From an uncultured Candidatus Saccharibacteria bacterium (GTDB lineage Bacteria; Patescibacteriota; Saccharimonadia; Saccharimonadales; Saccharimonadaceae), in the NCBI GenBank assembly GCA_963456245.1, contig CAUOKV010000002.1, forward strand, positions 55,731 through 119,730: a stretch of DNA of 64,000 nt. The letters run 5' to 3'. Below the pieces are notes generated by a model that was not told where the DNA came from, did not search any database, and was given only the letters and a program-made list of their open reading frames with translations. This document shows positions 11,921 to 61,782 of the stretch, in pieces; the first letter of the stretch is position 1, and each line of letters opens with the position of its first letter. The translations under genes and the position numbers were made by a program.

Positions 11921-12007
11921 GGGCGAGTGGCGGAATTGGTAGACGCTGCAGACTTAAAATCTGCTGATAGTAATATCGTGAGGGTTCAAGTCCCTCCCCG
12001 CCCACCA
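11921..12007 (+). tRNA. tRNA-Leu(TAA)
   Basis: GGGCGAGTGGCGGAATTGGTAGACGC, anticodon arm GCAGA-CTTAAAA-TCTGC, long variable arm, GGTTCAAGTCC, encoded CCA. Confidence 0.97.
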
Positions 12008-12051
12008 AAAAGTATTTTTCAGAGAATTCAGGCGCGTCAGCGCCCGTTTTT

Positions 12052-12660
12052 CTAGTGTTTTGCGTAGCAAAACCCAAATTCCAAAGGGAGGGAGAGATTT
12101 CTGGGGTAGCCGTAGGCTGCACCTTTTTGGGTTTTAGAAACAGGTTCAATCCTTCTATCTTCACCAACGCCTCCTTTATGGCACTCGGCTCGGCGGTTTT
12201 TGCGATTGTATTGAGGTCTGATGCTTGATTTGACCATTGGTGCATAGGTTCAACCTACGCATTGGCGGCAAGCGTTGGCTTGCCGATTTGTTCCTCCCCA
12301 GCGACTTCTTTTCACTCATCAGCTCGGCTTGTTTGGTTTTGTAGGTGATTTGATCAATATCTTGATCTAGGTAACTGCCTAAAAGTCGCTGTAACTTGCT
12401 TTGTAAGTTCTTAATCCGCTCTCGTGCTTGTGAAATAAACACGCCAGAGCTTTGCTCGGCTCTTTTTTCGTCCTCGTTCAACATTGTATGCATCTCATCA
12501 GCCCACGACTTCGGCAGAGCGTAGTCTCGCAACACTTTCGCTAGTTGCGAGAGCAGCACAGGTTCGGTTACGGCTGGCTCGGTACATTTAATCGTCTTAT
12601 TCTTGCCGTACAGCGATAATACACATACTCGTGTATATTGCCGTTCTTTTGGTGCTTTAG
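12052..12660 (-). pseudogene. C-terminal remnant of large serine recombinase (zinc-ribbon and coiled-coil region)
   Basis: Across frames: KHQKNGNIHEYVYYRCT/KNKTIKCTEP...KLQRLLGSYLDQDID...SEKKSL/EEQIGK...NA*VEPMHQW; frameshifts near 12607 and 12298, stop at 12255-12257; catalytic domain absent. Confidence 0.75.
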
Positions 12661-12707
12661 CAACTTTGGCGAATTTTTGCGTGTTTATTCTATGAGCATG
12701 CAAGAAA

Positions 12708-12716
12708 TGATATAAT
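12708..12716 (+). promoter_or_regulatory. Extended -10 promoter (TGaTATAAT) for RM operon leader
   Basis: Consensus TGnTATAAT just before the structured leader. Confidence 0.65.
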
Positions 12717-12722
12717 AAAGAA

Positions 12723-12859
12723 GTCCAACCAACAATTAACATCTTAGGGATTTTCCCAGTATTTTGGTATTTGAACCAGAAAAACGGGCACTTGCTCGAA
12801 AAACTTTTGGTTCAAATCCCAATTGTTGGTTGGACGCCTAGAGTAGGTGTCCGTTTTTT
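12723..12859 (+). ncRNA. Candidate structured leader/small RNA ending in terminator-like hairpin
   Basis: 15-bp perfect IR 12723-12737/12821-12835, inner stem 12769-12778/12808-12817, hairpin 12832-12852 followed by T6. Confidence 0.5.
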
Positions 12860-12908
12860 ATGTGCGGACTTTACTCAAGATAAATCAACTTAAAACTCAA
12901 AGGCGTCC

Positions 12909-13976
12909 ATGAGTAAAAAATTACTAGAAACTAACGTCGTATTACAAGGCGACTGTATAGAATTATTAAAAGCACTGCCAGACAAGTCGATTGATCTTGT
13001 TTTTGCCGACCCGCCGTATAACTTGCAGCTCAAAGGCGATTTGTGGCGACCAAATAATACAAAGGTATCTGCGGTTGATGACGACTGGGATAAATATGAT
13101 AGCTTTGTTGCTTATGATGATTTTACGACCAAATGGCTCACCGAGTGTCGCCGAGTTCTCAAAGACAACGGCTCGCTTTGGGTGATTGGTAGTTATCATA
13201 ATATCTTCCGTGTTGGTAAAATTGTGCAAGACCTCAACTACTGGATTCTGAATGATATTCTTTGGATTAAAACAAATCCTATGCCAAATTTTAAGGGCAC
13301 GCGCTTTAACAACTCACACGAAACGCTAATCTGGGCTGGTAAATCTGAAAAATCAAAGCCGACTTTTAATTATAAAACTATGAAAGCCCATAACGAAGAT
13401 AAGCAGATGCGCAGTGATTGGTTAATCCCGATTTGCAGCGGTAAAGAGCGGATTAAAATCAACGGCAAAAAAGCTCACTCAACACAAAAACCGCTCGCAT
13501 TGCTCCGCCGAATTATCAATGCAACCACAAAGCTGGGCGACATTGTACTTGACCCATTTCTCGGCAGCGGCACGACGGCGATTGTCGCAAAAGAACTCGG
13601 ACGTTCTTACATTGGTATTGAACGCGACAGCACCTATGTTAAAGTCGCAAGAAAGCGACTTGCCGACACGACACTACTCGACGAAATGCTTATTACGAGC
13701 AAACTAGAAGCAAAAGCGCCACGCGTTGCGTTTGGCTTACTCGTTGATACTGGACTTATCAAAGCAGGCGCAACGCTCACCAGCAAAGACGGCAAATACT
13801 CCGCAGTTGTTACCGCCAACGGTTCGCTCAAAAGTGGCGACATCGAGGGCTCTATTCACAAAGTTGGCGCAGTTCTGCAAAACCAACCGTCATGCAACGG
13901 CTGGACATTTTGGTATATCGACGGTGTGCTGATTGACGAAATTCGACAGAAGTATCTGGAGAAAAACCATGCTTGA
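12909..13976 (+). CDS. Beta-class N6-adenine DNA methyltransferase, CcrM/M.HinfI-like (probable GANTC), with C-terminal RAMA-like domain
   Basis: FADPPYNLQL, HSTQKP, LDPFLGSGTT, C-terminal GSIHKVGA...CNGWTFW. Confidence 0.92.
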   Translation: MSKKLLETNVVLQGDCIELLKALPDKSIDLVFADPPYNLQLKGDLWRPNNTKVSAVDDDWDKYDSFVAYDDFTTKWLTECRRVLKDNGSLWVIGSYHNIFRVGKIVQDLNYWILNDILWIKTNPMPNFKGTRFNNSHETLIWAGKSEKSKPTFNYKTMKAHNEDKQMRSDWLIPICSGKERIKINGKKAHSTQKPLALLRRIINATTKLGDIVLDPFLGSGTTAIVAKELGRSYIGIERDSTYVKVARKRLADTTLLDEMLITSKLEAKAPRVAFGLLVDTGLIKAGATLTSKDGKYSAVVTANGSLKSGDIEGSIHKVGAVLQNQPSCNGWTFWYIDGVLIDEIRQKYLEKNHA

Positions 13977-14829
13977 TTACGAAGAATTCAAGGAAATTTT
14001 TGATGAGAAAATCTTTGCAAAGTCAAAGCCCGACCTCATAAGAAAAGTTGCCGAATATCCAGACAGATACGTTGGGCTGTTTCGTCCAACTAAACCAGAG
14101 GCTAAGCTACTACAAAATCTTTTACAATCAAATGAAATTCGTTTTGGCGACGCTTTCGAGGTGGCAATTAAGCAGTATTTTATCAATGAGGGCTGGCAGT
14201 CTTTACCGCGAAAAATAATCTCCAAAGAGGGCGACGCACTCGACATTGACCAGCTACTTATGAAAAATGACAAGGTGCTATTTATTGAGCAAAAAGTACG
14301 CGACGACCACGATTCAACCAAAAAGCGCGGACAAATTAGTAATTTTGAGAAAAAGTTAGAGGCACTGGTCGATATTTACGGCGACAAGGTGGCGTGCGGA
14401 TTTTTCTACTTTATTGACCCAAGCCTTGTCAAAAACCGCAATTTTTATCAGCCGGAACTGCAAAAATTGCAAGATTCTTGGGGTGTAAACTTATCAGTAT
14501 CGTACGGACAAGATATGTTTGAACAACTTGGCTATCCAAATATTTGGCGTGATATAATGACTAACTTGGAAAAGTGGCGGCACGACATACCTGACTTGCC
14601 AAACGTAAATTTTGACACCAACCCCGAAGAATCTGCCGAAGAAATAAAAGACTTACCGCTCCGTATATTCCGTAAGTTGTTTGATGATGAGCGGATTGTA
14701 GAGCAGATACTGCCTGTGTTGTTTCCGACGGGCGCAACGCTGGCGATACTTGAGCCGTATTTTCGTGGACAGGGTACTGTAGTGGCTGGGAATATATCAA
14801 ATAAGATCCGAGACTACCTTTATAGTTAG
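13969..14829 (+). CDS. Type II restriction endonuclease, HpyAIV-like PD-(D/E)XK
   Basis: Overlaps MTase end; LQSNEIRFGD, DIDQL...FIEQKVRDDHDSTKKRGQ. Confidence 0.8.
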   Translation: MLDYEEFKEIFDEKIFAKSKPDLIRKVAEYPDRYVGLFRPTKPEAKLLQNLLQSNEIRFGDAFEVAIKQYFINEGWQSLPRKIISKEGDALDIDQLLMKNDKVLFIEQKVRDDHDSTKKRGQISNFEKKLEALVDIYGDKVACGFFYFIDPSLVKNRNFYQPELQKLQDSWGVNLSVSYGQDMFEQLGYPNIWRDIMTNLEKWRHDIPDLPNVNFDTNPEESAEEIKDLPLRIFRKLFDDERIVEQILPVLFPTGATLAILEPYFRGQGTVVAGNISNKIRDYLYS

Positions 14830-14905
14830 CCCTAACTATAAGGCAAAAGCGTAAACATATTATTTAGCATTTCAAACATCTTTCAAAAGAATTATAATAG
14901 GTGTC

Positions 14906-15364
14906 ATGGCAACCGGAGGGACAACAGCAGAAGACAAGCGCAAACACCTTGAGCTTATACAAGGTGTAGTTAATCGTATGGCGTCTAACTCTTTCCTCTT
15001 TAAAGGCTGGTCTATCACTATCATCGCCGGTATTTCAGCATTCGCTGCGCAAGACTCAAATACGGCTCTCATGATTGTACCTATAGTATCAACCTTATTG
15101 TTTTGGAGTGTTGACGCATATTACCTTATGATGGAGCGAGCCTTTAGGAGTATTTATAACAACGTTGCTAAGCTCAAACCAGAGAAGATCGATTATTCTC
15201 TAACTCCCGAAAAGTCCGACATATCATTCAGGTGCTGGTTAAAAATATTTTTTGGGCGCCCTGTATTGCTGCTATTCTATGGCACTGTTCTCGTTATGCT
15301 TGTTCTACTTGTACTGATGTTAAATAATTATGGATTGGAGGTTAGGATAATTCATGGCACGTAA
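14906..15364 (+). CDS. Small 3-TM membrane protein, putative TIR-associated effector
   Basis: HLELIQGVVNRMASNSFLFKGWS, FWSVDAYYLMMERAFR; three hydrophobic segments; overlaps TIR gene by 11 nt. Confidence 0.75.
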   Translation: MATGGTTAEDKRKHLELIQGVVNRMASNSFLFKGWSITIIAGISAFAAQDSNTALMIVPIVSTLLFWSVDAYYLMMERAFRSIYNNVAKLKPEKIDYSLTPEKSDISFRCWLKIFFGRPVLLLFYGTVLVMLVLLVLMLNNYGLEVRIIHGT

Positions 15365-15800
15365 AGTATTTTTTAGTTTCCACTACGAACGTGATGCGTG
15401 GCGTGTCGCGCAAGTACGAAATAGTAACATAATTACAAATCTAGATAAAAACCCGTTCTACGACAAAGCCGAGTGGGAATCTATCAAGCGTAATGGCGAC
15501 CAAGCGATAAAGAATTGGATTGATAGGCAACTCCAGGGCACATCTGTTACAGTGGTACTTATTGGGGCGCAAACTGCCAGTCGCAGATGGGTTCAATACG
15601 AAATACAAAAAAGTATTGAGCTTGGTAAAGGTTTAATAGGTGTGCATATAAGTGGAATAAAAGACCAGTATGGTAATACTGATAAGCTTGGAGTAAACCC
15701 GCTGCCGTCAGGATATCCTGTCTATAAGTGGAATGCGAGTAATGGCGCAGCAAACCTTGGAAGGTGGATTGAAGATGCGGCAATAAGAGCTGGCAGATAA
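15354..15800 (+). CDS. TIR-domain protein, ThsB-like (MTH538/DUF1863)
   Basis: RKVFFSFHYERDAWR, TSVTVVLIG, RRWVQYEI with putative catalytic Glu. Confidence 0.9.
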   Translation: MARKVFFSFHYERDAWRVAQVRNSNIITNLDKNPFYDKAEWESIKRNGDQAIKNWIDRQLQGTSVTVVLIGAQTASRRWVQYEIQKSIELGKGLIGVHISGIKDQYGNTDKLGVNPLPSGYPVYKWNASNGAANLGRWIEDAAIRAGR

Positions 15801-15812
15801 CCCTCAGACTAT

Positions 15813-15991
15813 TGCGCAAAGCGCATCGGCTTTGCCGACAAAAGCCGCGCCACCTCTACCGTTTGCGGTAGGCGCACCCGCCCAGAACACCCTTTACCTT
15901 TTCCTAATAAAATTACGGTTAGGGAAATTACAAAAAATATGCAAAGGGTTTTCTGGGTTGGAGTGCAGCACGGCTTGCCGTACTAGGCGGC
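15813..15991. other. Highly structured non-coding element (nested stem-loops)
   Basis: Hairpins TGCGC/GCGCA, TCGGC/GCCGA, CTACCG/CGGTAG and long nested stem CCCAGAA..CCCTTT..TTTCCTAA / TTAGGGAA..AAAGGG..TTCTGGG. Confidence 0.5.
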
Positions 15992-16139
15992 GCAGCTCAC
16001 AGTTTTTAACATTTTGTACTAAAACAGGCTCTAGTGTGGGCGTAAAATCTCACCAGATATTATATAAATCAAAACAGGTAGACAATGAAAATGAAAAAGA
16101 ACGGCAGTGCGAATGATTTGTCCTCCATTGCTCGTGGAG

Positions 16140-16268
16140 CTACAGCTTCATTATGCTCTCTAGGAAGGCTTGGCTTTTTGCGACGAGCTTTTGAAGTCTA
16201 GCTTTATCAATTCTGCCGTCAAGTCCTTCAATGAAATTAACCAACCTGTAGAGCGAGCTGCCCATCAT
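16140..16268 (-). pseudogene. 42-aa ORF, probable internally deleted restriction endonuclease partner of the second MTase
   Basis: MMGSSLYRLVNFIEGLDGRIDKARLQKLVAKSQAFLESIMKL*, preceded by GAAAGG, overlaps the MTase 3' end where an REase would start. Confidence 0.45.
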
Positions 16269-17253
16269 TACCTTTCGTTAATTCTTCAATCGGTGGTTTC
16301 CCTTTGGTATTCTTTTGCTCACTAAGGGTATTACGTTCCCAAAAAACACCATCTGCGTACCCCTGGATAGAATTGTCGCTATCCGCCATCTCCAATCGTT
16401 TTTCCGCCCAGGCGCAATAGGTTTTGTCGAGTTCAATGCCAATATACCTACGATCGAGCTTCTTGGCAGTTACGGAAGTCGTTCCGCTACCTAGAAAAGG
16501 GTCAAAGATCACATCTCCTATGTTTGAGCTAGCTAAAATCATTTTGGCAATCAGCTTCTCGGGTTTTTGGGTTGGATGGGCGGTATTTTCGGACATTGAC
16601 CAATATGGAATCGTACAATCATCCCAAAAGTTTGATGGACAGGTGTCCCGGAAGTTACCATTTTTGGTTACTTGCCAATCTTTCGGTTCGCCATTTTCTC
16701 TGTATGGAGCGATGACTTTCTTTCGAACCTTCACATCGCCCAGATTAAATGTCCATTGGCTGTTGTTGGTTGCGAACCAGATGTCCTCGAGTCCATTTTT
16801 CCAGTTTTCTTTTGCGCCCCGACCTTTCTCTCGTTGCCATGTTATTCGGTTTCTGACATTGAGATACTTTGGTAGAATCTGACCGATAACAACGCTGGTT
16901 TGCCAGTCGCAACAAACATAGACGCTTGCCTCATCTTTCAGCAGTGGCATGACTAGCTTTAACCACTGTTCTGTGTATTTGGCGTAGCTTTCGTTGTCAG
17001 TTTTCTTAAATTTGTTACCGTGATAGTCTTTTGATAAGTTGTACGGCGGATCAACGATCAGCAGATCGATAAACTTTCTTGGCATATCCTTCATAACTTC
17101 AAAGGCATCGCCGTTAATTGTCTTATTTATGATTTTACCAATAGACAGCTCCGAGCTTCCGTCTACGCAGCGGTTAAAATACTTTTGACCTTCCCCGAGA
17201 GAGAAATCGATGGTTTTATTTCGGTGTGATTTCTTAGCCTTTAGCATATCCAT
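16237..17253 (-). CDS. Beta-class N4/N6 DNA methyltransferase (currently orphan)
   Basis: IVDPPYNL, HPTQKPEKL, FDPFLGSGTT; start may be ATG at 17247. Confidence 0.92.
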   Translation of the reverse strand: MDMLKAKKSHRNKTIDFSLGEGQKYFNRCVDGSSELSIGKIINKTINGDAFEVMKDMPRKFIDLLIVDPPYNLSKDYHGNKFKKTDNESYAKYTEQWLKLVMPLLKDEASVYVCCDWQTSVVIGQILPKYLNVRNRITWQREKGRGAKENWKNGLEDIWFATNNSQWTFNLGDVKVRKKVIAPYRENGEPKDWQVTKNGNFRDTCPSNFWDDCTIPYWSMSENTAHPTQKPEKLIAKMILASSNIGDVIFDPFLGSGTTSVTAKKLDRRYIGIELDKTYCAWAEKRLEMADSDNSIQGYADGVFWERNTLSEQKNTKGKPPIEELTKGNDGQLALQVG

Positions 17254-28708: not shown

Positions 28709-29466
28709 AGTCCCCCCGCCTTCGTCTCCGCCGGTCGGTTGGCGGCGGCTGTATCTCTGACGATCGCCCCGTCACGTAGCTCAATGACTCGGTCGGCTTC
28801 TCCGGCAATCTGTTGGTTGTGGGTGACTATCACTACTGTCGTACCGAGCTGACGATTAATCTGATGAAAGATGCCGGTGATAGTCCGACTGTTTGCCGAG
28901 TCCAGGTTGCCGGTCGGTTCATCAGCCAGCAGTATGCTCGGACGATTGATGATGGCTCGGCAGATGGCGACTCGCTGGGCTTGTCCGCCCGATAGTTCGC
29001 TCGGCAAGGCATCAATCTTCTCGTCAAGTCCGACGGCGTAGAGAGTCTGGCGAGCCTTATCTCGGGCTTGGTTGTAGGGCTGTCCGGCGAACATCGTCGG
29101 CACTACGACATTATTGACGACGGAGAGGAATGGCTGGAGGTGAAACGCCTGGAAAACGAAGCCGATGCTGGTGCTGCGTAGCTGACTCAGCTGGTTGTCA
29201 TTGAGCCTGGCGATGTCTTGTCCATTGATGTAGACCTGACCGGCCGAAGGTTTCTCCAGGGCACCGATCAGTCGCAGCATAGTGCTCTTGCCGCTACCGC
29301 TCTCTCCGGTGATGGCGACAAACTCGCCCGGTCGAATGCTTAACGATACATCCCGCAAGGCGGTTACTGTCTGACGCCTGAGCTGATAAGATTGGCTAAC
29401 TTGACTCAGCAATATGGCACTATTGCCGCCGGCTACTTTTTGGTTTACCTCTTTCCCACCTGCCAT
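28705..29466 (-). CDS. LolD/MacB-type ABC ATP-binding protein
   Basis: [28 protein letters not shown]. Confidence 0.95.
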   Translation of the reverse strand: MAGGKEVNQKVAGGNSAILLSQVSQSYQLRRQTVTALRDVSLSIRPGEFVAITGESGSGKSTMLRLIGALEKPSAGQVYINGQDIARLNDNQLSQLRSTSIGFVFQAFHLQPFLSVVNNVVVPTMFAGQPYNQARDKARQTLYAVGLDEKIDALPSELSGGQAQRVAICRAIINRPSILLADEPTGNLDSANSRTITGIFHQINRQLGTTVVIVTHNQQIAGEADRVIELRDGAIVRDTAAANRPAETKAGGL

Positions 29467-29692
29467 TACTGATTATTAGTATAGTCCAGGTTTTCAGTTG
29501 TGGCAAGGCAGAACAACATGCTGTCTGCAAGATCTGTTGCAATAAATCTTGGATGACTAATTTATGACGTGCGTGTTGGGCTTGTATTTTGACTAAACTA
29601 CAACGCTTACTACAATAAGCACATCTTGTATTCGCTTATGGTATGACCTATACTCCCTTTGAGGGGAAGTTAAGTAGGCTAGGCTAGTCAAA

Positions 29693-30394
29693 ATGAAACC
29701 ACTGATTGATCTACGAAGGGTCGAAAAAACATATTTAGCCAAAAGACAGGCTATCATAGCTTTGCGTAGTGTCAGTTTGCAAGTTAAACAGGGTGAGTTT
29801 CTAGCTATAACCGGAGAAAGCGGTAGTGGCAAGAGCACTATGCTACGGATAATTGGCGCACTGGAGAAGCCGACTTCGGGGCAAGTGATTATTGATGGGC
29901 ATGACGTATCAAAGTTTAGTGACCATGAACTGAGTAAGTTACGCAATGAGAAAATCGGTTTCGTCTTTCAGTCATTCAATTTACAGCCGTTCTTATCGGT
30001 ACTTGACAACGTTTCTACGCCGGCAATATTTGCAGGAAGTCCGCTCAAGCTATCACGAGACAGAGCTAAACAACTGTTGGAGTCTGTTGGGCTGGGAGAT
30101 AAGGCAAACTCGCTACCCGGCGAGCTATCTGGCGGTCAGATGCAGCGAGTGGCAATTTGCCGGTCAGTTATTAATCGCCCTAGCATATTGTTGGCTGATG
30201 AGCCGACGGGAAACCTTGATTCTGTCAACAGCCGGGTGATATACGATTTATTTAGGGAAATAAACCGGAGACTGAGTACAACCATAGTAATCGTGACTCA
30301 CAGCCAAAACATGGCTAATCACGCTGATAGAATTATTAGGCTTAGGGATGGAGAGATTATTGGTGATGTGGATCGCTGGGAGGATGGAGAATGA
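29693..30394 (+). CDS. LolD/MacB-type ABC ATP-binding protein (AT-rich paralog)
   Basis: [25 protein letters not shown]. Confidence 0.95.
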   Translation: MKPLIDLRRVEKTYLAKRQAIIALRSVSLQVKQGEFLAITGESGSGKSTMLRIIGALEKPTSGQVIIDGHDVSKFSDHELSKLRNEKIGFVFQSFNLQPFLSVLDNVSTPAIFAGSPLKLSRDRAKQLLESVGLGDKANSLPGELSGGQMQRVAICRSVINRPSILLADEPTGNLDSVNSRVIYDLFREINRRLSTTIVIVTHSQNMANHADRIIRLRDGEIIGDVDRWEDGE

Positions 30395-32379
30395 TAAGGA
30401 CTACTGCGGCTATACTTTTAGCTAAATCTAAATTCCACACTAAACGTAGGCTAACAATCTTATCGTTATCTATTGCTAGCATATTACTAGGTGTCCTGAT
30501 GACATTAACTGTAATATCGCATGGACTAATCACAAACTTAAATAAGTATGTTAAAAAAGCTGGTGGCGAAAAATACCAGGTATCCGTAAGGGCAATTATT
30601 CCATCTGATATAAGCTCCTCCTTTGACAATCTCGATCACACCACCATTGATAATATTCGACTCTTTGAGAAACAGTATCGTACAACGAAAGCTGAACAAT
30701 ACCGCTTGCTGGGACTGAAATACAATGAAAGTGAAGATGCGCCAGCGTTAAGGTTTAGTCAGTTTGCATCGAAAGGTGAACCCGAGAAGTACCGTGTTGA
30801 ATTTGATGACTCTTCTCCCATTGCTAAAAAATTGATTAATCGTAAATACGAGGAATGGGCTAAGACGGCGAAAAATAAGACTCGGGACCTACTGAACACC
30901 GTAAAAAAATATGGTAAACCTTTGTACTACTCAAATTATGGCGCCTATAAGAATTATCTAAATCAGAATAACTCGCAAATCATTATTAATAACCGGGAAA
31001 GACTAAGTAATTGGGTCGATAATAAGAGTATGTATAGTGGCAATAGTCTCAAGAGAAGCTACTTTGCTGGTGTTAATGACAAACTTGTTGAGAAATATAT
31101 TACATATCATGGGAAACTGAAGGGCATCCCTGTTGTTGCCTCTGTTTACGATGTTGCTGATTTGTTTGGCGACCAATTGCATGTTGACAGAAAACCGCCA
31201 AACGGCAATGCAGCCAGAGCAGAATGGTTAAAAGAGGTACAACATAAAGCTAATGGCTTTACTTATCAAGTATGTTATCGCAACGCTGTTGAGCGTACAG
31301 TACTAACCAAGATTCAACAGGCTAGCAATGATACGTCAAATGAAAAGATAGATAACCGTGAAGGTGCTTCGGCTGATGGAGAGGGTCTATATTATCGACT
31401 GCCAACTATACCTTGCGGTGATATAGTTGCCGTGGCTGATAGACGTACTGTCGAACAAAAGAATAACGACCTCTTGCAAAACATTGCGAATAAGAAACTT
31501 GGGATTGCTACCGATCCAAGACATCGACTAATAACTATGCAAATAGTTGGGATATCAAATGAAAAAGAGGATCCGACTGTGATGGTTAATAATAACATTT
31601 TTGATATGGCAAGGTCAGTTTTGAAATCGAGTCCAGGTTTTGGAGGTACTACATTGGTTCCAAATACGTTGTACTTATCGGCCCCAAATGATGCAAGGGT
31701 TGATAATCTAGACAGCGAGGACTTGACTCTTGATGCGGTGGCTGGTCTATCGGACTCTACGTCCAAACAATTTCCTTATGGCATGCTAGAGTTCTCATCA
31801 GCTGAACAAGCTCGTAAATTTCTTGCCAACGAGACGTGCAATATCTCAAATCCAAATTGTGGAAAGGCTTATGAAGCGTCACAGTACGGCGTTAATTTCC
31901 TTGTGCTTGACGACTTAATTAATGGCGTGAATAGAATTATTTCTATCATTTTTGTAGTGGTTGCTAGTCTGGTGGCGATAATCATATGGTTAACAATTTC
32001 TCGAATTATAAGTGAGAGCAGACGTGAGACAGCTGTTTATCGTGCCGTTGGAGCTAAGAGAGCAGACATTGTTCTTGTCTATCTATCTTATACGATCATG
32101 CTAGCTTTGATCATTATTGCTTTCGCATTTATCATTGCAACCATTCTATCTGCCGTCGTCGCATATATGGCAACACCATATTTATTAGTGGCGGCTCAGG
32201 CTTCGTTTGGTATTATAGGTAGCATTTCGACCGTTAGTCTGGTTGAGCTGAATGATTACGTGTTGGTCATGATGTTATGGATGGCTTTATTGATTGTGGC
32301 AATATCAGTTTTGTCTGCTATTCAGCCTATAGTTCGTAATATGAGAAGGGAGCCCGCAAATGACTTAGCTGTTGAGTGA
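30391..32379 (+). CDS. FtsX/MacB-type ABC permease (AT-rich paralog of 26690-28708)
   Basis: Shares KFHTKRRLTILSL, GLYYRLPT.PCGDI, QYGVNFLVLD, ISRIISESR.ETAVYRA. Confidence 0.85.
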   Translation: MIRTTAAILLAKSKFHTKRRLTILSLSIASILLGVLMTLTVISHGLITNLNKYVKKAGGEKYQVSVRAIIPSDISSSFDNLDHTTIDNIRLFEKQYRTTKAEQYRLLGLKYNESEDAPALRFSQFASKGEPEKYRVEFDDSSPIAKKLINRKYEEWAKTAKNKTRDLLNTVKKYGKPLYYSNYGAYKNYLNQNNSQIIINNRERLSNWVDNKSMYSGNSLKRSYFAGVNDKLVEKYITYHGKLKGIPVVASVYDVADLFGDQLHVDRKPPNGNAARAEWLKEVQHKANGFTYQVCYRNAVERTVLTKIQQASNDTSNEKIDNREGASADGEGLYYRLPTIPCGDIVAVADRRTVEQKNNDLLQNIANKKLGIATDPRHRLITMQIVGISNEKEDPTVMVNNNIFDMARSVLKSSPGFGGTTLVPNTLYLSAPNDARVDNLDSEDLTLDAVAGLSDSTSKQFPYGMLEFSSAEQARKFLANETCNISNPNCGKAYEASQYGVNFLVLDDLINGVNRIISIIFVVVASLVAIIIWLTISRIISESRRETAVYRAVGAKRADIVLVYLSYTIMLALIIIAFAFIIATILSAVVAYMATPYLLVAAQASFGIIGSISTVSLVELNDYVLVMMLWMALLIVAISVLSAIQPIVRNMRREPANDLAVE

Positions 32380-32469
32380 AATTGAGTGGCTGTTGGTTTT
32401 AATTTACCTAATATTATTAATTAGTAGCTAACTAATACCTGTTGCATTAGTTTGCAAGGAGGATGTTAT

Positions 32470-32802
32470 ATGTCTAGTATATTATCAACAAAAATTGCTT
32501 CCAAAATAAGTCTTGCGCTTGTAGCGTTTGGCGTGGTGGCGGTTATGTCTGTTGTTGGGGCTAAGCCAGCAATGGCTAAACAGCACGACATAAATATGTG
32601 GGATGCTTGCGAATACCAATACGGCTCCATTATGAGTGTCGTCTCAATCGCTGATAACGTTTACGGTTGGCGATGTCATTGGTGGGGATCTAACGGTCGT
32701 ATGTATGGACAGCTGAATCTCAGAAGTTACTGTGGCCACAGATATGGACAGGGAGCATACTATCGCAATTTCCACGATAAATACAGCTGGTATTGCGGAT
32801 AA
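32470..32802 (+). CDS. Secreted 4-Cys, Trp/Tyr-rich two-repeat miniprotein
   Basis: AGGAGG RBS, signal peptide ending PAMA, 74-aa mature part with two C..Y/WxC repeats, terminator downstream. Confidence 0.8.
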   Translation: MSSILSTKIASKISLALVAFGVVAVMSVVGAKPAMAKQHDINMWDACEYQYGSIMSVVSIADNVYGWRCHWWGSNGRMYGQLNLRSYCGHRYGQGAYYRNFHDKYSWYCG

Positions 32803-32816
32803 ATAACTTGCTGACG

Positions 32817-32855
32817 TTAAAATTAAAGGAGTCTTCAGGACTCCTTTAATTTTAA
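32817..32855. terminator. Bidirectional intrinsic terminator
   Basis: 17-bp perfect stem TTAAAATTAAAGGAGTC/GACTCCTTTAATTTTAA between convergent genes. Confidence 0.85.
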
Positions 32856-32933
32856 AATAGTAGAACGTGCTAGCGATGCTTCGGATGTATGTGATTATGA
32901 TTATGTGCATGCTTTAGGGCAAGCCAGTATAAT

Positions 32934-34112
32934 TTAAGGGACTAAGTCCAGTACCACCAGGTTCTCGATGTGGGGTGTGCGAGGGAAGAAGTTAAACGGT
33001 TGACAAAGGACAGGGCGATAATCTGAGCCAAGACGGGCGATATCCCGAGCCTGGGTGACGGGATTGCAGGAGAGGTAGATGAGACGAGGTGGCTTTACCT
33101 CGGCTAGTTGGGCAACCAACTTGCTATCCAGTCCGGCTCGAGGTGGGTCAACGATGATGGTAGCCTCGGGCGTGATATACTCTAACGCCTCTTCGGAACG
33201 GGCGTGTATAGCGGTGATATTAGGATGATCGCCAGGTAAATTGCGCTTCAGCTCGCTAAAGGCATGGCGATCAGTCTCGATCAAGGCTAACCGGCGGTCA
33301 CGAGCCACCGATAGCCCGATAGTACCGACGCCGGCGTACATATCTACGACTTGATTGGTGGTGATGAATGGCTTGATGGTCTGTAGTGCCAGCTGATAGA
33401 CCGGCAGGTTGATCTGGAAGAAGCCGTTTGGCGAGTAGGTATAGCGATGCCCTAATATAGTATCGCTAAGCTGTTTCATCTGAGGATGAGGCTGGTTCAT
33501 AGCGAAGAGAGCGCTGCTAACCTGCCCCGCCTGATCGCACCTGATCATGATTGATTGATAGTGGCGAGCTTGAGCTCCGGTGCTATTGAGCTGATCGATC
33601 AGGCGATTAGCCTCCTGCCAAATCTCGACCCGTTCTATCGAGCTGCGCTGTACGGCAATCTTGCGGTGGCTACCCCGCCCGTGAAAAGCCGGGTAGATGC
33701 GCTCAGTCTGATGATCCCACCACAGCGAATACTCCATCTTGTTGCGGTAGTGATAATACTGCCCATCGCCGATGATTTCGTTCGGCTCGATCTCTACCCG
33801 GTGCTGACGGAAGGCTTCTTTGACTAGCGCCACCTTATGCCGGCTTTCGGCAGACTCAGTCATGATCTGCCAGGGCGAAGTGGCGAGGAAGCAATCGTCC
33901 CTCGGGGCGATCCGATCGGGCGACGGCTTGATGACCTCGGTGACGATAGCTTCGGCGTGAGTTTTCTTCAGCTTGGTTAGCCGGATTAGAGCGGTCTCAC
34001 CCGGTAAAGCTCCCCAGACGAAGACTTTCCTACCATCAGCTAGGTCGCCGATAGCTTGTCCGCCCGGAACCAGCTGCTCCAGCTTGACCACCTCCTCAAT
34101 GATTCGCTTCAC
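32934..34112 (-). CDS. RNA m5U methyltransferase, RlmD/TrmA family with TRAM domain
   Basis: YRNKMEY, FFQIN, DMYAGVGTIG, VDPPRAGL, YLSCNPVTQARD, FPRTPHIE; start approximate. Confidence 0.9.
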   Translation of the reverse strand: MKRIIEEVVKLEQLVPGGQAIGDLADGRKVFVWGALPGETALIRLTKLKKTHAEAIVTEVIKPSPDRIAPRDDCFLATSPWQIMTESAESRHKVALVKEAFRQHRVEIEPNEIIGDGQYYHYRNKMEYSLWWDHQTERIYPAFHGRGSHRKIAVQRSSIERVEIWQEANRLIDQLNSTGAQARHYQSIMIRCDQAGQVSSALFAMNQPHPQMKQLSDTILGHRYTYSPNGFFQINLPVYQLALQTIKPFITTNQVVDMYAGVGTIGLSVARDRRLALIETDRHAFSELKRNLPGDHPNITAIHARSEEALEYITPEATIIVDPPRAGLDSKLVAQLAEVKPPRLIYLSCNPVTQARDIARLGSDYRPVLCQPFNFFPRTPHIENLVVLDLVP

Positions 34113-55500: not shown

Positions 55501-58461
55501 TTAGCCCGGTTCCACGTTATACTTCTTACGGTAGGCCTCATCATCAATCAAGGTGATTGGTACGCCGAAGTAGCGGGCGAATTTCTTGCTGTTCTCATTG
55601 ATGTCATCGGTACTGGAGCCGTGAACGATGATGTGCGATGGTTGCAGGCGGCCATTCCTCGCCCCGGGCTCACTTGATATGCGAGAGAGACCGACTTCGT
55701 TGTAGTGATAGTATTTACTATGTAGGTGCTTGACCTGATCAAATCTATGCATTAGTCCATCACAAGTGTTGAATTCGACGCCACCCATCTCTGTCTTCAG
55801 GCTACCTCGCAGGTAACCATCGTTTGGTGCCATGGCGACGATGCCGCCGGGCTGAATATGATTAAAGCCCAGCAATACCCGAGAGGCTTCGTCGCTGCCG
55901 ACTCGCAGATAGTTGCTATAGTGTTTCTCGTCGATACAGCTAGTCGAGATAGTTGCGGAGCCTTGAGCAGTATTCCAAACGCTAGGGTCTTTCAGCAGGG
56001 CGCGGTAGACGTCAGGGTTAATATATTGTCCGTAGATAGTATGACTGAGCATCTTGAAGGGAGCGCCGGTCAGCTTGACCACTTCAATGGCACCGTCAGA
56101 ACTGCCCTCTTCTATAGTGAGGTGTTCTATCCCCTCGCCCGTTGCCTCCAGATCGATCAACGATTTATTCCAGTCGTCGGTGATGTAATGGCGGAGCTTA
56201 CTGATTAGGTCAGAAGCCGAGCCTTCGATCTTAGTGATCTTCGCTACGCCACTCTCGTCCTCGACCGGCACACAGAGGGGTGAGTCGGCAATTATCCGAA
56301 GCAACTTCTCGGTAGCCTCACCATTAGATATCTCCTTCTTAGGTCTGTCGGGAGGAATATACATGTCTCGCCAATCGTCGTACTTGAGTCCAAAATTGAT
56401 TGGGTTAATTTGGCAAAATAAGTTTATTACTGCTACGTCATCCGGACTCAAGACGTGACGACGACCCAGAGTGTCGAGGTCAAAGCAGCTCAGGTCGTAG
56501 CCATCGAAGTCAGATAGCATGATGAAGGAGATAGCTCGACAGGCATCCCCGACGTAGTTGCTGACCAGGTCGCTGGTGGCTCGCTCAGCGATGACTGCTC
56601 GGTAATTTTTCAGCTCTTCGACTGTCTTGATACCGAATTTGTTGCGTGTCCGCAAGACTAGATTAAGGCTATTACGAGTAGCTTCGTCAAGCTTGTCGAC
56701 CGTAGCCAACTCGTCAAAGAGTGGACCAGCTCTACCGATGTACTCAGTCAGTACGGCGTAATTCACCATCCTAGCCCGATCGCCGTCAAATAAGTTGAAC
56801 CGGCTAAGCGTATCCAGGTGTCGACGCACCACTTCAATCGACTCATCATCCATCGTGCTCAGCATTTGATCGGCGCGACAGTTGTATAGAACCAGATCTC
56901 CGAAATACTCTTCGCCCAAAATAGAATCCTTACCTTGGGCATGAGCATTAATGACCGACTCTCTGTGCGCTAAGTTGGCTAGAGGGTACTTGTTAAGGAA
57001 GCTGTCAGCCTTATGGATCAGATCAATGAGATAATCTATGCCGGTGATACTATGCTGGCTGGCCAACCCAAGGAAGGTGCTGGGGGCTCCCTTTTCGTTC
57101 CATTCTTTATACATATCCAATGCCTTTACCTGAGACTGCCCGAGGATACTATATATCTCCGGCGTAAGAGGCATGTCTCCGAGACAAGAGACAAACTTTC
57201 CGATCTCCTCGTCGTTGGTTAATAGAGGACTGCTTTGCAAACGATCATAATATTGTTGGCTAGGTATGCCGTCTTCAAAAAATTTGCTAAAGTCTTTATT
57301 ACTATATTTCTGGTCGACGCAGTCCAGAAGATCTCGAAAAGAGTGTATATGTAGCTCAGAAGTTATACCGTGATCTGATGGTGAGATAATTCCAATCTGG
57401 CTAGTCATCTGAAACTGCCGCCAGTACCGGGCTGCCTTAGAGTCAGGACAAAGACTGAGGGAGATTCCATTCATACCCCTGCGGGAACCGCACTTTGAGT
57501 ATTCCTTGATTAGTTGATCGTATAGTCGTCCGATGTTGTCATCATTAATCAATCCAGCTCGGTAAAGATTGTCTTGTAGAGGAATTGCATCGGGATGAAA
57601 ATCGTCGATCACGCTATTATCGACACAGTCTTCAATGAAAGTATCATTTGAGGCTATGTCGTAGCCAATATTTTTCAGCCCTTTAGCGAAATCAGCTAGA
57701 TTCCGGGTGTCACGAAGCTCTAATTTGAATTTATCAATGATAATGCTCTGCGAGATAGTGCTCACGTCCAGCTCGGATTTTCTCTTTTTCAGCACCGACT
57801 TGACTTGTTTGCTCATCTTTTCGTCATTTAGGACGCCATTAACGAAATAAGCATAAGATGGCTCGTCTACACTCATCGGAAAATCAGGCAGCTTTTCCAG
57901 GAATAAAACGGTGGTCTCGGCTAATCCGTCGTAGTTTTCTAGAAATAACTGGTGGTCTGTCATAAAGTCGGTGACCCGATTGATAGTCATATCCCCAAAG
58001 TATCCTACTTCAGCATCTAATTCGTCGGGCTCTCGAGCGTATTCGTTCTGGGATAGATCCAGAGCCTGTTTAATGGTGTAGTCTCTGGTTGTTTGCTCCA
58101 TCGCCATTAGCTTATCTGCCAGCTCTTTGCTTGCTAGCTCTTCGTCCTCAATGATGGCTTCGATGAGCTCAGTAGCGACTTCTCTTGTCTCTTGTTGTTG
58201 CTCAGGCGTGAGAGTAGCTGCGATTAGGTCGTCTAAAGAGCTAATGCTACCGCCTTGGTCGTCGGACAGCTCGACTTGCTCAGTTTGGTTCTCCTCTTTA
58301 GGTCTATCGGTGAACGCAGTAGCTAGCCCACCCAGCTTCAACCAGATAGATGACAGATCGGACAAGTCGATTTCCGCCGAAGTGTTGGCGGGTGCCCAAT
58401 CATCGTCTTGCTTGTCGTTGGAGAGGTCATATGAGTTTGATTCTTGCTGAGCTGATTCCAT
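55501..58461 (-). CDS. Large acidic protein, paralog 1, with C-terminal putative ADP-ribosyltransferase-like domain
   Basis: 986 aa; FKMLSHTI...TISTSCID...VLLGF...YNEVGLSR...LQPSHIIV; function inferred. Confidence 0.75.
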   Translation of the reverse strand: MESAQQESNSYDLSNDKQDDDWAPANTSAEIDLSDLSSIWLKLGGLATAFTDRPKEENQTEQVELSDDQGGSISSLDDLIAATLTPEQQQETREVATELIEAIIEDEELASKELADKLMAMEQTTRDYTIKQALDLSQNEYAREPDELDAEVGYFGDMTINRVTDFMTDHQLFLENYDGLAETTVLFLEKLPDFPMSVDEPSYAYFVNGVLNDEKMSKQVKSVLKKRKSELDVSTISQSIIIDKFKLELRDTRNLADFAKGLKNIGYDIASNDTFIEDCVDNSVIDDFHPDAIPLQDNLYRAGLINDDNIGRLYDQLIKEYSKCGSRRGMNGISLSLCPDSKAARYWRQFQMTSQIGIISPSDHGITSELHIHSFRDLLDCVDQKYSNKDFSKFFEDGIPSQQYYDRLQSSPLLTNDEEIGKFVSCLGDMPLTPEIYSILGQSQVKALDMYKEWNEKGAPSTFLGLASQHSITGIDYLIDLIHKADSFLNKYPLANLAHRESVINAHAQGKDSILGEEYFGDLVLYNCRADQMLSTMDDESIEVVRRHLDTLSRFNLFDGDRARMVNYAVLTEYIGRAGPLFDELATVDKLDEATRNSLNLVLRTRNKFGIKTVEELKNYRAVIAERATSDLVSNYVGDACRAISFIMLSDFDGYDLSCFDLDTLGRRHVLSPDDVAVINLFCQINPINFGLKYDDWRDMYIPPDRPKKEISNGEATEKLLRIIADSPLCVPVEDESGVAKITKIEGSASDLISKLRHYITDDWNKSLIDLEATGEGIEHLTIEEGSSDGAIEVVKLTGAPFKMLSHTIYGQYINPDVYRALLKDPSVWNTAQGSATISTSCIDEKHYSNYLRVGSDEASRVLLGFNHIQPGGIVAMAPNDGYLRGSLKTEMGGVEFNTCDGLMHRFDQVKHLHSKYYHYNEVGLSRISSEPGARNGRLQPSHIIVHGSSTDDINENSKKFARYFGVPITLIDDEAYRKKYNVEPG

Positions 58462-58570
58462 TTTCTTCTTTGCGTATACTTGGTCACTGATTATAATAGC
58501 ATGATTATTCCCCGGTTAAGCTGAAAGCATGACCGTCGGCTTGATGTGGATGATTGTCGAGCCGGAGTTT

Positions 58571-61500
58571 CTACTCTACGTTATACTTCTTGTGGTAAGC
58601 TTCGTCGTCGATTAGAGTGATTGGCACACCAAAATACCTAGCAAACTTTTTGCTGTTCTCATTGATGTCATCAGTACTGGAGCCGTGAACGATGATATGT
58701 GATGGTTGCAAGCGGCCATTCCTCGCCCCGGGCTCGCTTGATATGCGAGAGAGACCGACTTCGTTGTAGTTGCAATGTATGCTATGAGCTACCTGATCAT
58801 ACTGATGCATTAGTTCATCGCAGGTGGTGAATCGTACGTCAAACATCTTTAAGTCTAAGCTGCCATGTAGATAGCCGTCATGCGGCGCCATAGCGACGAT
58901 GCCACCGGGCTGAATATGATTGAAGCCCAGTAGTACTCGAGAGTCCTCACGGCTACCCATCCACAGATAGTTACCGCAATGCTTTTCGTCGATACAGCTG
59001 GTCGAGACAGTGGCGGAACCCTGGGCGGTGTTCCAGACGCTAGGGTCGTTGATTAGGGAATGGAAGACATCAGGGCGATTGTAATGTCCGTAAATGGTGT
59101 GGCTGAGCATCTTAAATGGAGCGCCGGTCAGCTTGACCACTTCAATGGCGCCATTAGGATTGCCTTCTTCTATAGTGAGGTGTTCTATTCCTTCACCTGT
59201 CGCCTCTAGGTTAATCAACGATTTATTCCAGTCGTCGATAATGTAATGACGGAGTTTGTTCGCCAGATCAGCTCCCGCTCCTTCAAGCTTAGTGATCTTG
59301 GCTACGCCACTTTCATCCTCGACCGGTACACAGAGGGGTGATTCGGCGATAGCCTGGAGTATCTTCTCGGTGGCCATACCGTTAGTGGCGACACTATCGG
59401 AAGATACATATTCTTTCTGCCTCTCATCGTACTCGAACTCAACAGCGTCCCAGTCGTCGTGATGGACGGGTACATACTCCCTGAGCTCCTCATCATACTC
59501 AAACCCGAAGTTGCGGGGATCAACTTTACGAAATAGGTCTATGACTGCTTCGTCATCCGAGGTCAAGACTTGACGCCGACGGAGCGTCTCTAGATCAAAG
59601 CAAGCTGTGTTACAGCCATCGAAGTCAGATAGCATGATAAACGAGATAGCCTTGTAGGCGTCTCTGACGTCATCACTCACCAGGTCGCCAGTGGCTCGTT
59701 CGGCGATGACGGCTCGATAGCTCCTCAGCTCCTCGACCGTTTTAATGCCATAGGGATTTCTCGTTTGTAGGACGAGGTTGAGGCTGTCTCTGACATCTCC
59801 ATCAAGCTGGTCAACACTAGCCAGCTCGCTGAAAAGCTGCCTGGCTTCTTGATGCTCCTCAGCCAGCACGGCGCAATTAACCATCCTGGGCCGGTCGCCG
59901 TCAAATAGGTTGAAGCGGCTCAGTGTGTCCAGGTGCTGACGTACTTGTTTGATCGACTCTTCATCCATCGCACTTAGTAATTGATCGGCGTGACAGTTGT
60001 ATAGGACTAGATCACCAAAATACTCCTCGCCTAAAACAGCGTCCTTACCCTGGACGTGAGCGTCGATGACTGACTTCCGATCCGTTAAGTCGGCTAGCGG
60101 ATATTTATCAAGGAAGCTACCGACTCGTTGACTCAGCTCTGCAAGCTCATCAGAGGTAGTAATACTGGATGTGTCGATAGACTTAGCGAAAGACATTAAA
60201 GCACCTTTTTGCGCCCATTCATGATATATATCCAGCGCTTTCTTCTGGCCGTCACCCAGCATATCCAGAATCTCCGGCGTCAGGGGCATATTCGGTAGAC
60301 ATTTGATAGCGAATTCGACAGCTTTGTCGTCGTTGCAGAGCAGGGGTGAACCGGCTAATTGGTCATAATAGCTTTGGTCAGGGATACCATTCTTAAAATG
60401 CTTGTAAAGTTCACTTTCCGGTCTTCTCGGGTTGGAGCTTGTGTAAATCCATAGCGATCGAAAGGAGTCAATATCTCGGTGGGTGACGAAATTATTGTCA
60501 GCCGGTGATGTCACTCCGAATGATCTAGTAATCTGAAGCTGTCGCCAGTATTTCGTTACTTCCGACTCAGGACAAAGGTCAAGGGATATAGCATACTCAA
60601 GCTCCGGGCGGTGATCACTTGGAGGCAGGTCTTCTTTGAGTAGCTGGTAATATAGTCGTCCAATGTTGTCATCATTGATCAGCCCGGCTCGGTATAGGTT
60701 GTCTTGTAGGTAAAGTTCTTCGGGGTGATCATCGTCAATGATACTAAAGCTAATGCACTTTCTTAGAAAAGCGTCACTTGATGCTACATCGTAGCCGATA
60801 TTCTTGAGCCCCCTAGCGAACTCAGCTAAGTTTTTAGTGTCTCTTTTGTGCTCAGTGAAGCAGCCGAGGATGATGTCTTGGGCAATGCCATCGATCTTGT
60901 AGTTAAATTTTTTCTTCGCTAGCTCCAGCTTAATCTGTTGACCAACCTGCCGGTCATTGAGTGCGCCATTGACAAAGTAGGCATAAGGCGCCTCATCTAC
61001 GTCTATATAGGAATGCGGAAGGTCCTCTAAGAAGGAGATAGTTGTTTTAGCTAGCCCGTCGTAGTTCTCCAGAAATAGTTGGTGGTCGATTAGAAGCTGG
61101 GTGACTCTGCTGATCGGTCTCGCAAATCTGGCTTTAGCTTCGTCGGTATATTTAAGCTGTGTCCAAAATAGCACCTCCTTAATGGCACAATCTCTGACCG
61201 GCTGTTCCATCGCCGTCAGCTTCTCTACCAGCTCTTCGCTTGCCGGCTGGTCATCCTTGACGATGGCTTTAGTCAATCCTGCGGCGGTCTGCCTGACTTC
61301 CTGTTGCTGCTCGGGCGTGAGGGTTGTCTCGATTAGCTCACTGAGCGAGGTGATGTTGTCTTTGCTTTTCTCAGTGACAGTGGCGTCACTACTATTTCGA
61401 TCGTCGGGCTTACTCCACCTTGCTTCGCTGCTCTGAGCGGCGGCAGTAGTGTCGCTATTGTTCTGATCATCAGGCGGTCTGTCCGACTTGTCCGTACTCT

Positions 61501-61678
61501 CCCCTTTGAGCCATTCGGCAAAGGTCATAGCCATCTCACCTATCTTTGACCTGAGCGATGGTGGTCTTAGTGTATCAGCTTTAGCCGGCTCTTCCTTAGT
61601 AGCCGGTTCCCAACCGTCATCCCATCCACCATTTGGCGTATGACCATGCTGCTCTTGCCCCGCTTTTTCGTGTCTCAT
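58571..61678 (-). CDS. Large acidic protein, paralog 2
   Basis: 1035 aa, colinear with paralog 1, same C-terminal motifs. Confidence 0.75.
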   Translation of the reverse strand: MRHEKAGQEQHGHTPNGGWDDGWEPATKEEPAKADTLRPPSLRSKIGEMAMTFAEWLKGESTDKSDRPPDDQNNSDTTAAAQSSEARWSKPDDRNSSDATVTEKSKDNITSLSELIETTLTPEQQQEVRQTAAGLTKAIVKDDQPASEELVEKLTAMEQPVRDCAIKEVLFWTQLKYTDEAKARFARPISRVTQLLIDHQLFLENYDGLAKTTISFLEDLPHSYIDVDEAPYAYFVNGALNDRQVGQQIKLELAKKKFNYKIDGIAQDIILGCFTEHKRDTKNLAEFARGLKNIGYDVASSDAFLRKCISFSIIDDDHPEELYLQDNLYRAGLINDDNIGRLYYQLLKEDLPPSDHRPELEYAISLDLCPESEVTKYWRQLQITRSFGVTSPADNNFVTHRDIDSFRSLWIYTSSNPRRPESELYKHFKNGIPDQSYYDQLAGSPLLCNDDKAVEFAIKCLPNMPLTPEILDMLGDGQKKALDIYHEWAQKGALMSFAKSIDTSSITTSDELAELSQRVGSFLDKYPLADLTDRKSVIDAHVQGKDAVLGEEYFGDLVLYNCHADQLLSAMDEESIKQVRQHLDTLSRFNLFDGDRPRMVNCAVLAEEHQEARQLFSELASVDQLDGDVRDSLNLVLQTRNPYGIKTVEELRSYRAVIAERATGDLVSDDVRDAYKAISFIMLSDFDGCNTACFDLETLRRRQVLTSDDEAVIDLFRKVDPRNFGFEYDEELREYVPVHHDDWDAVEFEYDERQKEYVSSDSVATNGMATEKILQAIAESPLCVPVEDESGVAKITKLEGAGADLANKLRHYIIDDWNKSLINLEATGEGIEHLTIEEGNPNGAIEVVKLTGAPFKMLSHTIYGHYNRPDVFHSLINDPSVWNTAQGSATVSTSCIDEKHCGNYLWMGSREDSRVLLGFNHIQPGGIVAMAPHDGYLHGSLDLKMFDVRFTTCDELMHQYDQVAHSIHCNYNEVGLSRISSEPGARNGRLQPSHIIVHGSSTDDINENSKKFARYFGVPITLIDDEAYHKKYNVE

Positions 61679-61782
61679 TTATATCGTCCCTATTTTGGTG
61701 CTATCAATATAATAACACAAGCAATTTACCGAGCTAGTTTACGCAGCTTGTTAGACCGGAGTTAGCCGGCAAAGGAAACGTT

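What the first reader, a model, noticed from the sequence alone, without database searches (positions are those of the whole stretch)
14893..15800. Two-gene Thoeris-like system: ThsB-type TIR paired with a small 3-TM protein instead of ThsA
Seen: overlapping two-gene unit with its own TATAAT, inside a defence island; the TIR keeps WVQYEI. The 152-aa partner has three TMs, a polar N-terminal helix (HLELIQGVVNRMASNSFLFKGW) and a DAYYL..ER.FR motif, with no SIR2, SLOG, Macro or caspase domain. Known: ThsB TIRs make NAD-derived signals that activate a separate effector. Inference: a minimal variant in which a pore-forming membrane protein senses the signal or binds TIR directly. In an epibiont with reduced metabolism the NAD may come from the host. 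I cannot confirm whether this pair is already catalogued.
Basis: partly seen in the sequence, partly recalled or inferred. Interest (0 to 1): 0.82.

Follow-up and report, generated by a model that had tools for sequence, protein, structure and literature searches.

The report
Type V-like Thoeris anti-phage pair
This is an intact two-gene unit, a TIR enzyme plus a small membrane protein, that is already catalogued as a candidate anti-phage system and is most likely a member of the recently validated type V Thoeris family, in which the enzyme would make an alarm molecule that opens a predicted membrane pore; it is an ordinary member of a known kind, here in a tiny bacterium with no recognisable genes for making the enzyme's NAD substrate.

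Summary
In detail: a 152-aa three-helix membrane protein (14906-15364) overlaps a ThsB-type TIR with its catalytic Glu (15354-15800), behind a conserved leaderless promoter, in a mobile restriction-modification cassette of a Saccharibacteria genome. The novelty does not hold. Both genes match PADLOC candidate PDC-M50A/B (E 4e-43, 2e-56). A December 2025 preprint validated 'type V Thoeris': ThsB plus a 3-TM effector annotated DUF2270 (ThsF), signalling by 3'cADPR, predicted ring. I could not see ThsF sequences, so membership is inferred (about 0.75): the family is a remote, sub-threshold DUF2270 relative; canonical DUF2270 was not beside a TIR in 5 of 5 loci; this family sits beside TIRs in 36 of 36 genome loci, 40 of 47 viral loci and 3 of 3 Bacillaceae plasmids (but only 3 of 6 in an unbiased Bacteroidota draw); its TIRs group with SLOG/type I TIRs; SLOG-fused versions exist. 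It pairs with many unrelated TIR subfamilies, which favours a diffusible signal over direct binding. The genome lacks recognisable NAD synthesis or salvage genes, so NAD is likely imported. The scan found the same pair before in another genome (e1-3095868). Interest low.

The parts
14870..14898 (+). Likely leaderless sigma-70 promoter (-35 TTTCAA 14870-14875, -10 TATAAT 14893-14898, 7 nt before the ATG)
   Evidence: hexamers kept in relatives while the spacer diverges; genome-wide peak at this distance
14906..15364 (+). 3-TM effector, PDC-M50A, probable ThsF (152 aa)
   Evidence: E 4e-43
15354..15800 (+). ThsB-type TIR, PF08937 / PDC-M50B, catalytic E83 (codon at 15600) (148 aa)
12909..13976 (+). 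Type II DNA methyltransferase of the same mobile cassette (context)
13969..14829 (+). HpyAIV-family type II restriction enzyme of the same cassette (context)
12650..16058 (.). Mobile cassette (MTase, REase, TM, TIR) found as one block at another chromosomal site in L003-L005
   Evidence: 94% identity; one contig spans 12653-15901 in run X11
11976..12742 (-). Broken remnant of a large serine recombinase (context)
11921..12007 (+). tRNA-Leu(TAA), likely integration site (context)

Best explanation
The two genes form a Thoeris-type anti-phage system, most likely type V, in which the TIR protein would sense infection and turn NAD+ into a cyclic ADP-ribose signal (likely 3'cADPR) that would bind and open a predicted ring of the three-helix membrane protein, stopping the infected cell. 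Shown here: intact co-oriented genes, catalytic Glu, family identity (PDC-M50A/B), tight linkage to TIRs, purifying selection, mobile defence context. Inferred: identity with ThsF, the signal, binding in basic pockets formed by the conserved K11/K13/H14/R24/K33/R78/R81 residues, oligomerisation, and import of NAD+ from outside the cell.
For: Family: PDC-M50A E 4e-43, PDC-M50B E 2e-56, ThsB1 E 3e-60; PF08937 E 7e-29. TIR matches solved ThsB (9b7d, 6lhy; E 4e-30; about 45% identical by my count of the printed alignment) and E83 aligns with the Glu I take to be E85, whose mutation abolishes defence (10.1101/2021.01.06.425286, passages). Linkage: a ThsB-like TIR on the same strand within 600 bp in 36 of 36 genome loci, 40 of 47 viral loci within 700 bp, 3 of 3 Bacillaceae plasmid loci examined. 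Type V fit (preprint 10.64898/2025.12.03.692087): three TM helices; DUF2270 link (28 of 116 members hit PF10028, best E 1.4e-5; hhalign E 4e-4, same helix-Trp-TM-TM-acidic-Arg order); present in Bacillaceae and in 6 of 300 Bacteroidota genomes, whereas canonical DUF2270 was in 1 of 301 and beside no TIR in 5 of 5 loci. Signal: in a 39-row tree 22 of 23 partner TIRs fall in a 96/92 clade with the SIR2-SLOG and SLOG-linked TIRs, apart from Macro, caspase, SLATT and Nmad2 TIRs; five proteins fuse a SLOG domain to this effector. Synonymous changes outnumber replacements 2-3 to 1 in both genes. No other Thoeris effector in the genome.
Against: No ThsF sequence could be seen (figures not held, bioRxiv supplements closed), so membership is indirect. 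The query itself does not hit PF10028; the best member hit (E 1.4e-5) is weak, DUF3278 is hit by more members (44 of 116), hhalign probability is only 37%, and window-shuffled controls reach 10-13 bits against 16-17 for real sequences. In the unbiased Bacteroidota draw only 3 of 6 homologs had a recognised TIR neighbour. The linkage counts contain near-copies (L001-L005, L031/L036, L089/L090). The tree's partner TIRs were mostly picked by likeness to this TIR and it has long branches. The preprint itself found one of two type V systems not activated by added 3'cADPR, and lists further untested TM effectors and a type IX effector that its text does not describe. No experiment exists for this copy.
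Confidence: 0.72

Rival explanations
1. A Thoeris-type signalling pair, but not type V: the effector is one of the other membrane effectors that the preprint predicted without testing (or its type IX effector), possibly answering a different ADPR-derived signal.
For: DUF2270 likeness is remote and below threshold; related small-TM families with DUF2270 or 8xMP likeness exist (L040, L048; atlas lead PF24838 at 0.85); the preprint lists 29 putative types, 11 of them verified.
Against: Among 30 TIR loci from Bacteroidota this family was the only DUF2270-like three-helix neighbour found (3 of 30, one being the centre genome), as common as the Macro and caspase types, which fits the abundance and enrichment reported for type V.
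Confidence: 0.18
2. The TIR is the toxic part (NAD+ depletion) and the membrane protein is the phage sensor or a direct binding partner that activates or restrains it.
For: TIRs act as NADase effectors in other systems and the preprint allows this for unverified types; one locus holds both matches in a single reading frame (L035).
Against: The TM family pairs with at least six TIR subfamilies, upstream or downstream, often two or three per locus, which is hard to square with one binding interface; SLOG fusions point to a small-molecule input; the TIR is of the signalling ThsB type.
Confidence: 0.07
3. The pair is intact cargo without function in this host because imported NAD+ is too scarce for signalling.
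For: No NadD, NAPRTase, PnuC or true NadE match in a 98.7% complete genome; patchy presence (2 of 36 other genomes of the genus); neighbours are decaying (recombinase, second REase).
Against: GAPDH is present, so a NAD pool must exist; both genes and the promoter are conserved under purifying selection across several Saccharibacteria.
Confidence: 0.03

Closest known systems
PADLOC candidate PDC-M50 (PDC-M50A + PDC-M50B), from the PDC set of Payne et al., bioRxiv 10.1101/2024.01.29.577857
   Same: Both genes match the two models (E 4e-43 and 2e-56) and are adjacent.
   Different: Nothing. The PDC set is described as untested; the main text does not name M50, and a full-text search for 'PDC-M50' found 0 papers.
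Type V Thoeris (ThsB + ThsF, 'DUF2270' effector), Yirmiya et al., bioRxiv 10.64898/2025.12.03.692087
   Same: TIR plus three-helix membrane effector, DUF2270-like, type I-like TIR, found in Bacillaceae and Bacteroidota.
   Different: Sequence identity with ThsF not testable here; host is an epibiont without recognisable NAD synthesis; no signal, ring or defence measured for this copy.
Type I Thoeris (ThsB + SIR2-SLOG ThsA)
   Same: Closely related TIR (E 4e-30 to solved ThsB; same clade as a SIR2-SLOG-linked TIR).
   Different: No SIR2 or SLOG domain in the partner or elsewhere in the genome.
Type II (TM-Macro) and type VII (SLATT) Thoeris
   Same: Membrane-targeting effector activated by a TIR signal.
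   Different: No Macro or SLATT match; their TIRs lie outside this TIR's clade.

Membership tests
PADLOC PDC-M50 | PDC-M50A and PDC-M50B model hits on adjacent genes | tested here: met
Thoeris (all types) | Stand-alone ThsB TIR with the catalytic Glu | tested here: met
   role of the Glu from 10.1101/2021.01.06.425286
Thoeris (all types) | Separate effector gene in an operon with the TIR, recurring across genomes | tested here: met
   36 of 36 genome loci, 40 of 47 viral loci, 3 of 3 plasmid loci; 3 of 6 in an unbiased draw
Thoeris (all types) | Phage-induced ADPR-derived signal and anti-phage activity | not testable with these tools
   needs LC-MS and plaque assays
Type V Thoeris | Effector with three predicted TM helices | tested here: met
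   (first helix weakly hydrophobic)
Type V Thoeris | Effector annotated as DUF2270 (PF10028) | tested here: inconclusive
   query no hit; 28 of 116 members weak hits, best E 1.4e-5; hhalign 37%, E 4e-4; modest margin over controls
Type V Thoeris | Sequence match to validated ThsF or its DefenseFinder model | not testable with these tools
   supplements closed; no B. thuringiensis record among the 40 of 142 plasmid rows shown
Type V Thoeris | TIR makes 3'cADPR | not testable with these tools
   indirect only: tree position with SLOG-linked TIRs, SLOG fusions
Type V Thoeris | Effector forms a ring-shaped homo-oligomer (heptamer in AF3) | not tested
   the complex-prediction queue was full; no model obtained
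Type I Thoeris | SIR2-SLOG ThsA effector | tested here: not met
   partner lacks both domains; no match in the genome by family search (control silent) or by phmmer with a SIR2-SLOG protein from L057
Type II / IV / VII Thoeris | Macro, caspase or SLATT effector | tested here: not met

The most novel reading that the evidence does not exclude
PDC-M50A is not ThsF but a separate, very large (about 4,200 clusters at 50% identity), still untested Thoeris effector family that reads a TIR signal directly or through a fused SLOG domain, and it works in NAD-auxotrophic epibionts on NAD+ taken from the host, tying the epibiont's immunity to host metabolism.
Probability: 0.18. Interest if true: 0.55.

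Novelty: new member of a known kind. Interest (0 to 1): 0.2.

Why it matters
As a system it adds little: the architecture is catalogued and very probably validated. Two modest points remain. It links PADLOC's PDC-M50 to type V Thoeris, which the preprint does not do (0 mentions of PADLOC or PDC). And it places NAD-consuming immune signalling in a Saccharibacteria genus where 33 of 36 other genomes and this one lack any NadD-like gene, which makes NAD supply from the host a testable question; two searches for Thoeris with Saccharibacteria or Patescibacteria listed no paper on this (listings only).

Tried and rejected
Fold searches of the monomer model: no Foldseek match at E <= 0.001 and only generic helical-hairpin matches at Z <= 9.4; no solved relative by profile; this shows neither a new nor a known fold. 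ESM Atlas: nearest clusters unnamed, 8xMP at 0.85 is a lead only. Homo-oligomer prediction: never queued, queue full, no result. Cluster-member names: the database was switched off, no result. Looking for the published type V source organism among named plasmids: not among the rows shown. No terminator-like site after the TIR and no att-like repeat at the island ends. The PF02540 hit in the genome covers 71 of 242 positions of a protein I read as MnmA from its SGGVDSS start (recalled motif), so it was rejected as NadE. Family searches for PF18185 and PF20016 had silent controls, so they were backed by phmmer with real effector proteins from fetched loci. Earlier-finding look-ups by sequence and by place were empty.

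Full report
Observation. The window holds two overlapping + strand genes, ORF A 14906-15364 (152 aa) and ORF B 15354-15800 (148 aa), sharing 11 nt. ORF B is a ThsB TIR (PF08937 E 7e-29; PADLOC ThsB1 E 3e-60) with WVQYEI at residues 79-84. It matches solved ThsB chains 9b7d and 6lhy at E 4e-30. E83 aligns with chain residue 86, which is E85 if the first residue is a tag; that these chains are the B. cereus MSX-D12 protein is recalled. E85Q abolishes defence (10.1101/2021.01.06.425286, passages read). ORF A has three hydrophobic stretches and folds confidently as a long helical hairpin plus a third helix (pLDDT 93). TATAAT lies 7 nt before its ATG. The site count is at chance level, but the -10 position is kept in 8 of 8 Saccharibacteria loci inspected and 67 of 449 long ORFs of the genome have such a hexamer 6-7 nt before the start, so a leaderless promoter is likely.

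Context. Close homologs lie in Saccharibacteria records. Upstream are a type II methyltransferase and an HpyAIV-family restriction enzyme, a broken serine recombinase and tRNA-Leu. The block 12650-16058 occurs at another site beside a full-length recombinase in L003, and the same block is in L004 and L005; one public contig spans 12653-15901. GC is 0.42 against 0.506. The family is in 2 of 36 other genomes of the genus and 1 of 24 from other families; in G318 a different version, in the opposite gene order, sits near the same HD-domain gene. Against L006 and L007, synonymous codon changes outnumber replacements 62:27 and 58:19 (TM), 64:27 and 58:18 (TIR).

Already catalogued. ORF A matches PDC-M50A (E 4e-43) and ORF B PDC-M50B (E 2e-56). 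The PDC set comes from Payne et al. (10.1101/2024.01.29.577857; outline, passages and section 10 read), who call the 145 candidates untested; the main text does not name M50 and its supplements were closed. The family is large: 4,201 clusters at 50% identity, and 141 plasmid records.

Linkage to TIRs. Of 36 genome loci, 31 had a TIR by phmmer, 34 by a TIR profile and all 36 after PADLOC scans of the remaining neighbours; in L034 the TIR ends a 1171-aa protein, in L016 it is 589 bp away, in L035 both matches share one frame. Of 47 viral loci 40 have a same-strand TIR within 700 bp, one has it on the other strand and six have none. Three of three Bacillaceae plasmid loci examined have annotated TIR neighbours. 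These sets contain near-copies. In an even draw of 300 Bacteroidota genomes, 6 held the family and only 3 of the 6 had a recognised TIR neighbour. Partners belong to at least six TIR subfamilies, in either order, often several per locus. This argues for a diffusible signal and against one cognate interface.

Type V Thoeris. Yirmiya et al. (10.64898/2025.12.03.692087; parts 1-6 of 8, section 30 and passages read; figures and supplements not seen) validated TIR plus a three-helix effector annotated DUF2270 (ThsF) from Bacillus: 3'cADPR made on infection, toxic to one of two systems when added, defence reduced by Tad1, heptameric ring in AF3, about 1.2% of genomes, enriched in Bacteroidota. It is the only paper holding 'DUF2270' or 'type V Thoeris' in the library. 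ORF A does not hit PF10028 itself, but 28 of 116 family members do weakly (best E 1.4e-5; DUF3278 is hit by 44). Profile comparison with 83 canonical DUF2270 proteins gives probability 37%, E 4e-4, aligning KGW-TM1-TM2-D with TNW-TM1-TM2-E; cross-searches reach 16-17 bits against 2-7 for reversed and 10-13 for window-shuffled controls. The link is therefore remote. The indirect case is stronger. Canonical DUF2270 was in 1 of 301 Bacteroidota, 0 of 201 Actinomycetota and 4 of 101 Verrucomicrobiota genomes, had no TIR within 1.5 kb in 5 of 5 loci, and its plasmid matches shown are haloarchaea and proteobacteria (40 of 94 rows). So the preprint's ThsF is unlikely to be canonical DUF2270. Among 30 fetched TIR loci of 36 TIR-bearing Bacteroidota genomes, recognised neighbours were this family 3 (one the centre genome), Macro 3, caspase 3, SLOG 3, SLATT 2, Nmad2 2, SIR2-SLOG 1, and none in 13. 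I put membership at about 0.75.

Signal. In a 39-row tree, 22 of 23 partner TIRs, this one included, share a 96/92 clade with the SIR2-SLOG and SLOG-linked TIRs, apart from Macro, caspase, SLATT and Nmad2 TIRs (rows partly chosen by likeness to this TIR, divergent partner subfamilies mostly left out, long branches, midpoint root). Four of 7 longer homologs, and P0175, carry an N-terminal SLOG domain fused to the effector; SLOG binds 3'cADPR in type I. Conserved residues K11, K13, H14, Q19, R24, N28, K33, W35, W67, D70, E77, R78, R81 are candidates for the basic pocket described for ThsF; this is inference. No oligomer model could be obtained.

Host. The genome (98.7% complete) has one TIR and no other Thoeris effector. 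It has GAPDH but no NadD-like, NAPRTase or PnuC match and no true NadE; 3 of 36 other genomes of the genus have a PF01467 protein against 22 of 24 from other families. Import of NAD+ is thus likely, not shown. That Saccharibacteria lack NAD biosynthesis is in print (PMC7786006, two passages read).

Verdict. Real, intact and probably functional, but catalogued as PDC-M50 and most likely type V Thoeris. New member of a known kind, interest 0.2.

Noticed in passing
window 16176-16265 (-) and 16237-17253 (-): The second methyltransferase has lost its partner: only about 30 codons remain of a 385-aa type II restriction enzyme that is whole in L001 (about 1 kb deleted here).
   Followed up: partly
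P0390, P0391, P0392, P0393, P0175 (and probably P0140): SLOG domain fused in front of the PDC-M50A effector; a Met with a purine-rich run before it remains at the junction, as if two neighbouring genes had fused. Gene context unknown.
   Followed up: partly
window 15872-16058; L003:3547-3731: A 185-bp non-coding element at the cassette end is present in inverted copies on both sides of the cassette in L003-L005 and has higher contig depth in public runs; single copy in this genome. Possibly a recombination or cassette-end element.
   Followed up: partly
L051 (G318:C16:5080-8472): A genome of the same genus carries a different TIR-TM pair, in the reverse order, near the same HD-domain gene: the hotspot appears to have gained this system twice.
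   Followed up: partly
genome G000 and genus g1: The genus almost entirely lacks PF01467 nucleotidyltransferases (3 of 36 others) that most other families of the order keep (22 of 24), suggesting uptake of intact NAD+ and perhaps other cofactors.
   Followed up: partly
genome G000: Strong peak of -10-like hexamers 6-7 nt before start codons (67 of 449 long ORFs), suggesting many leaderless mRNAs.
   Followed up: no
L063:612-1280, L078:2003-2665: Two Bacteroidota TIRs are followed by similar 220-aa proteins with one N-terminal TM helix and no clear Pfam family: another candidate Thoeris effector.
   Followed up: no
window 29000-33500 and 56000-64000: Further low-GC stretches (down to 0.41 near 30-33 kb) that may be other islands.
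   Followed up: no
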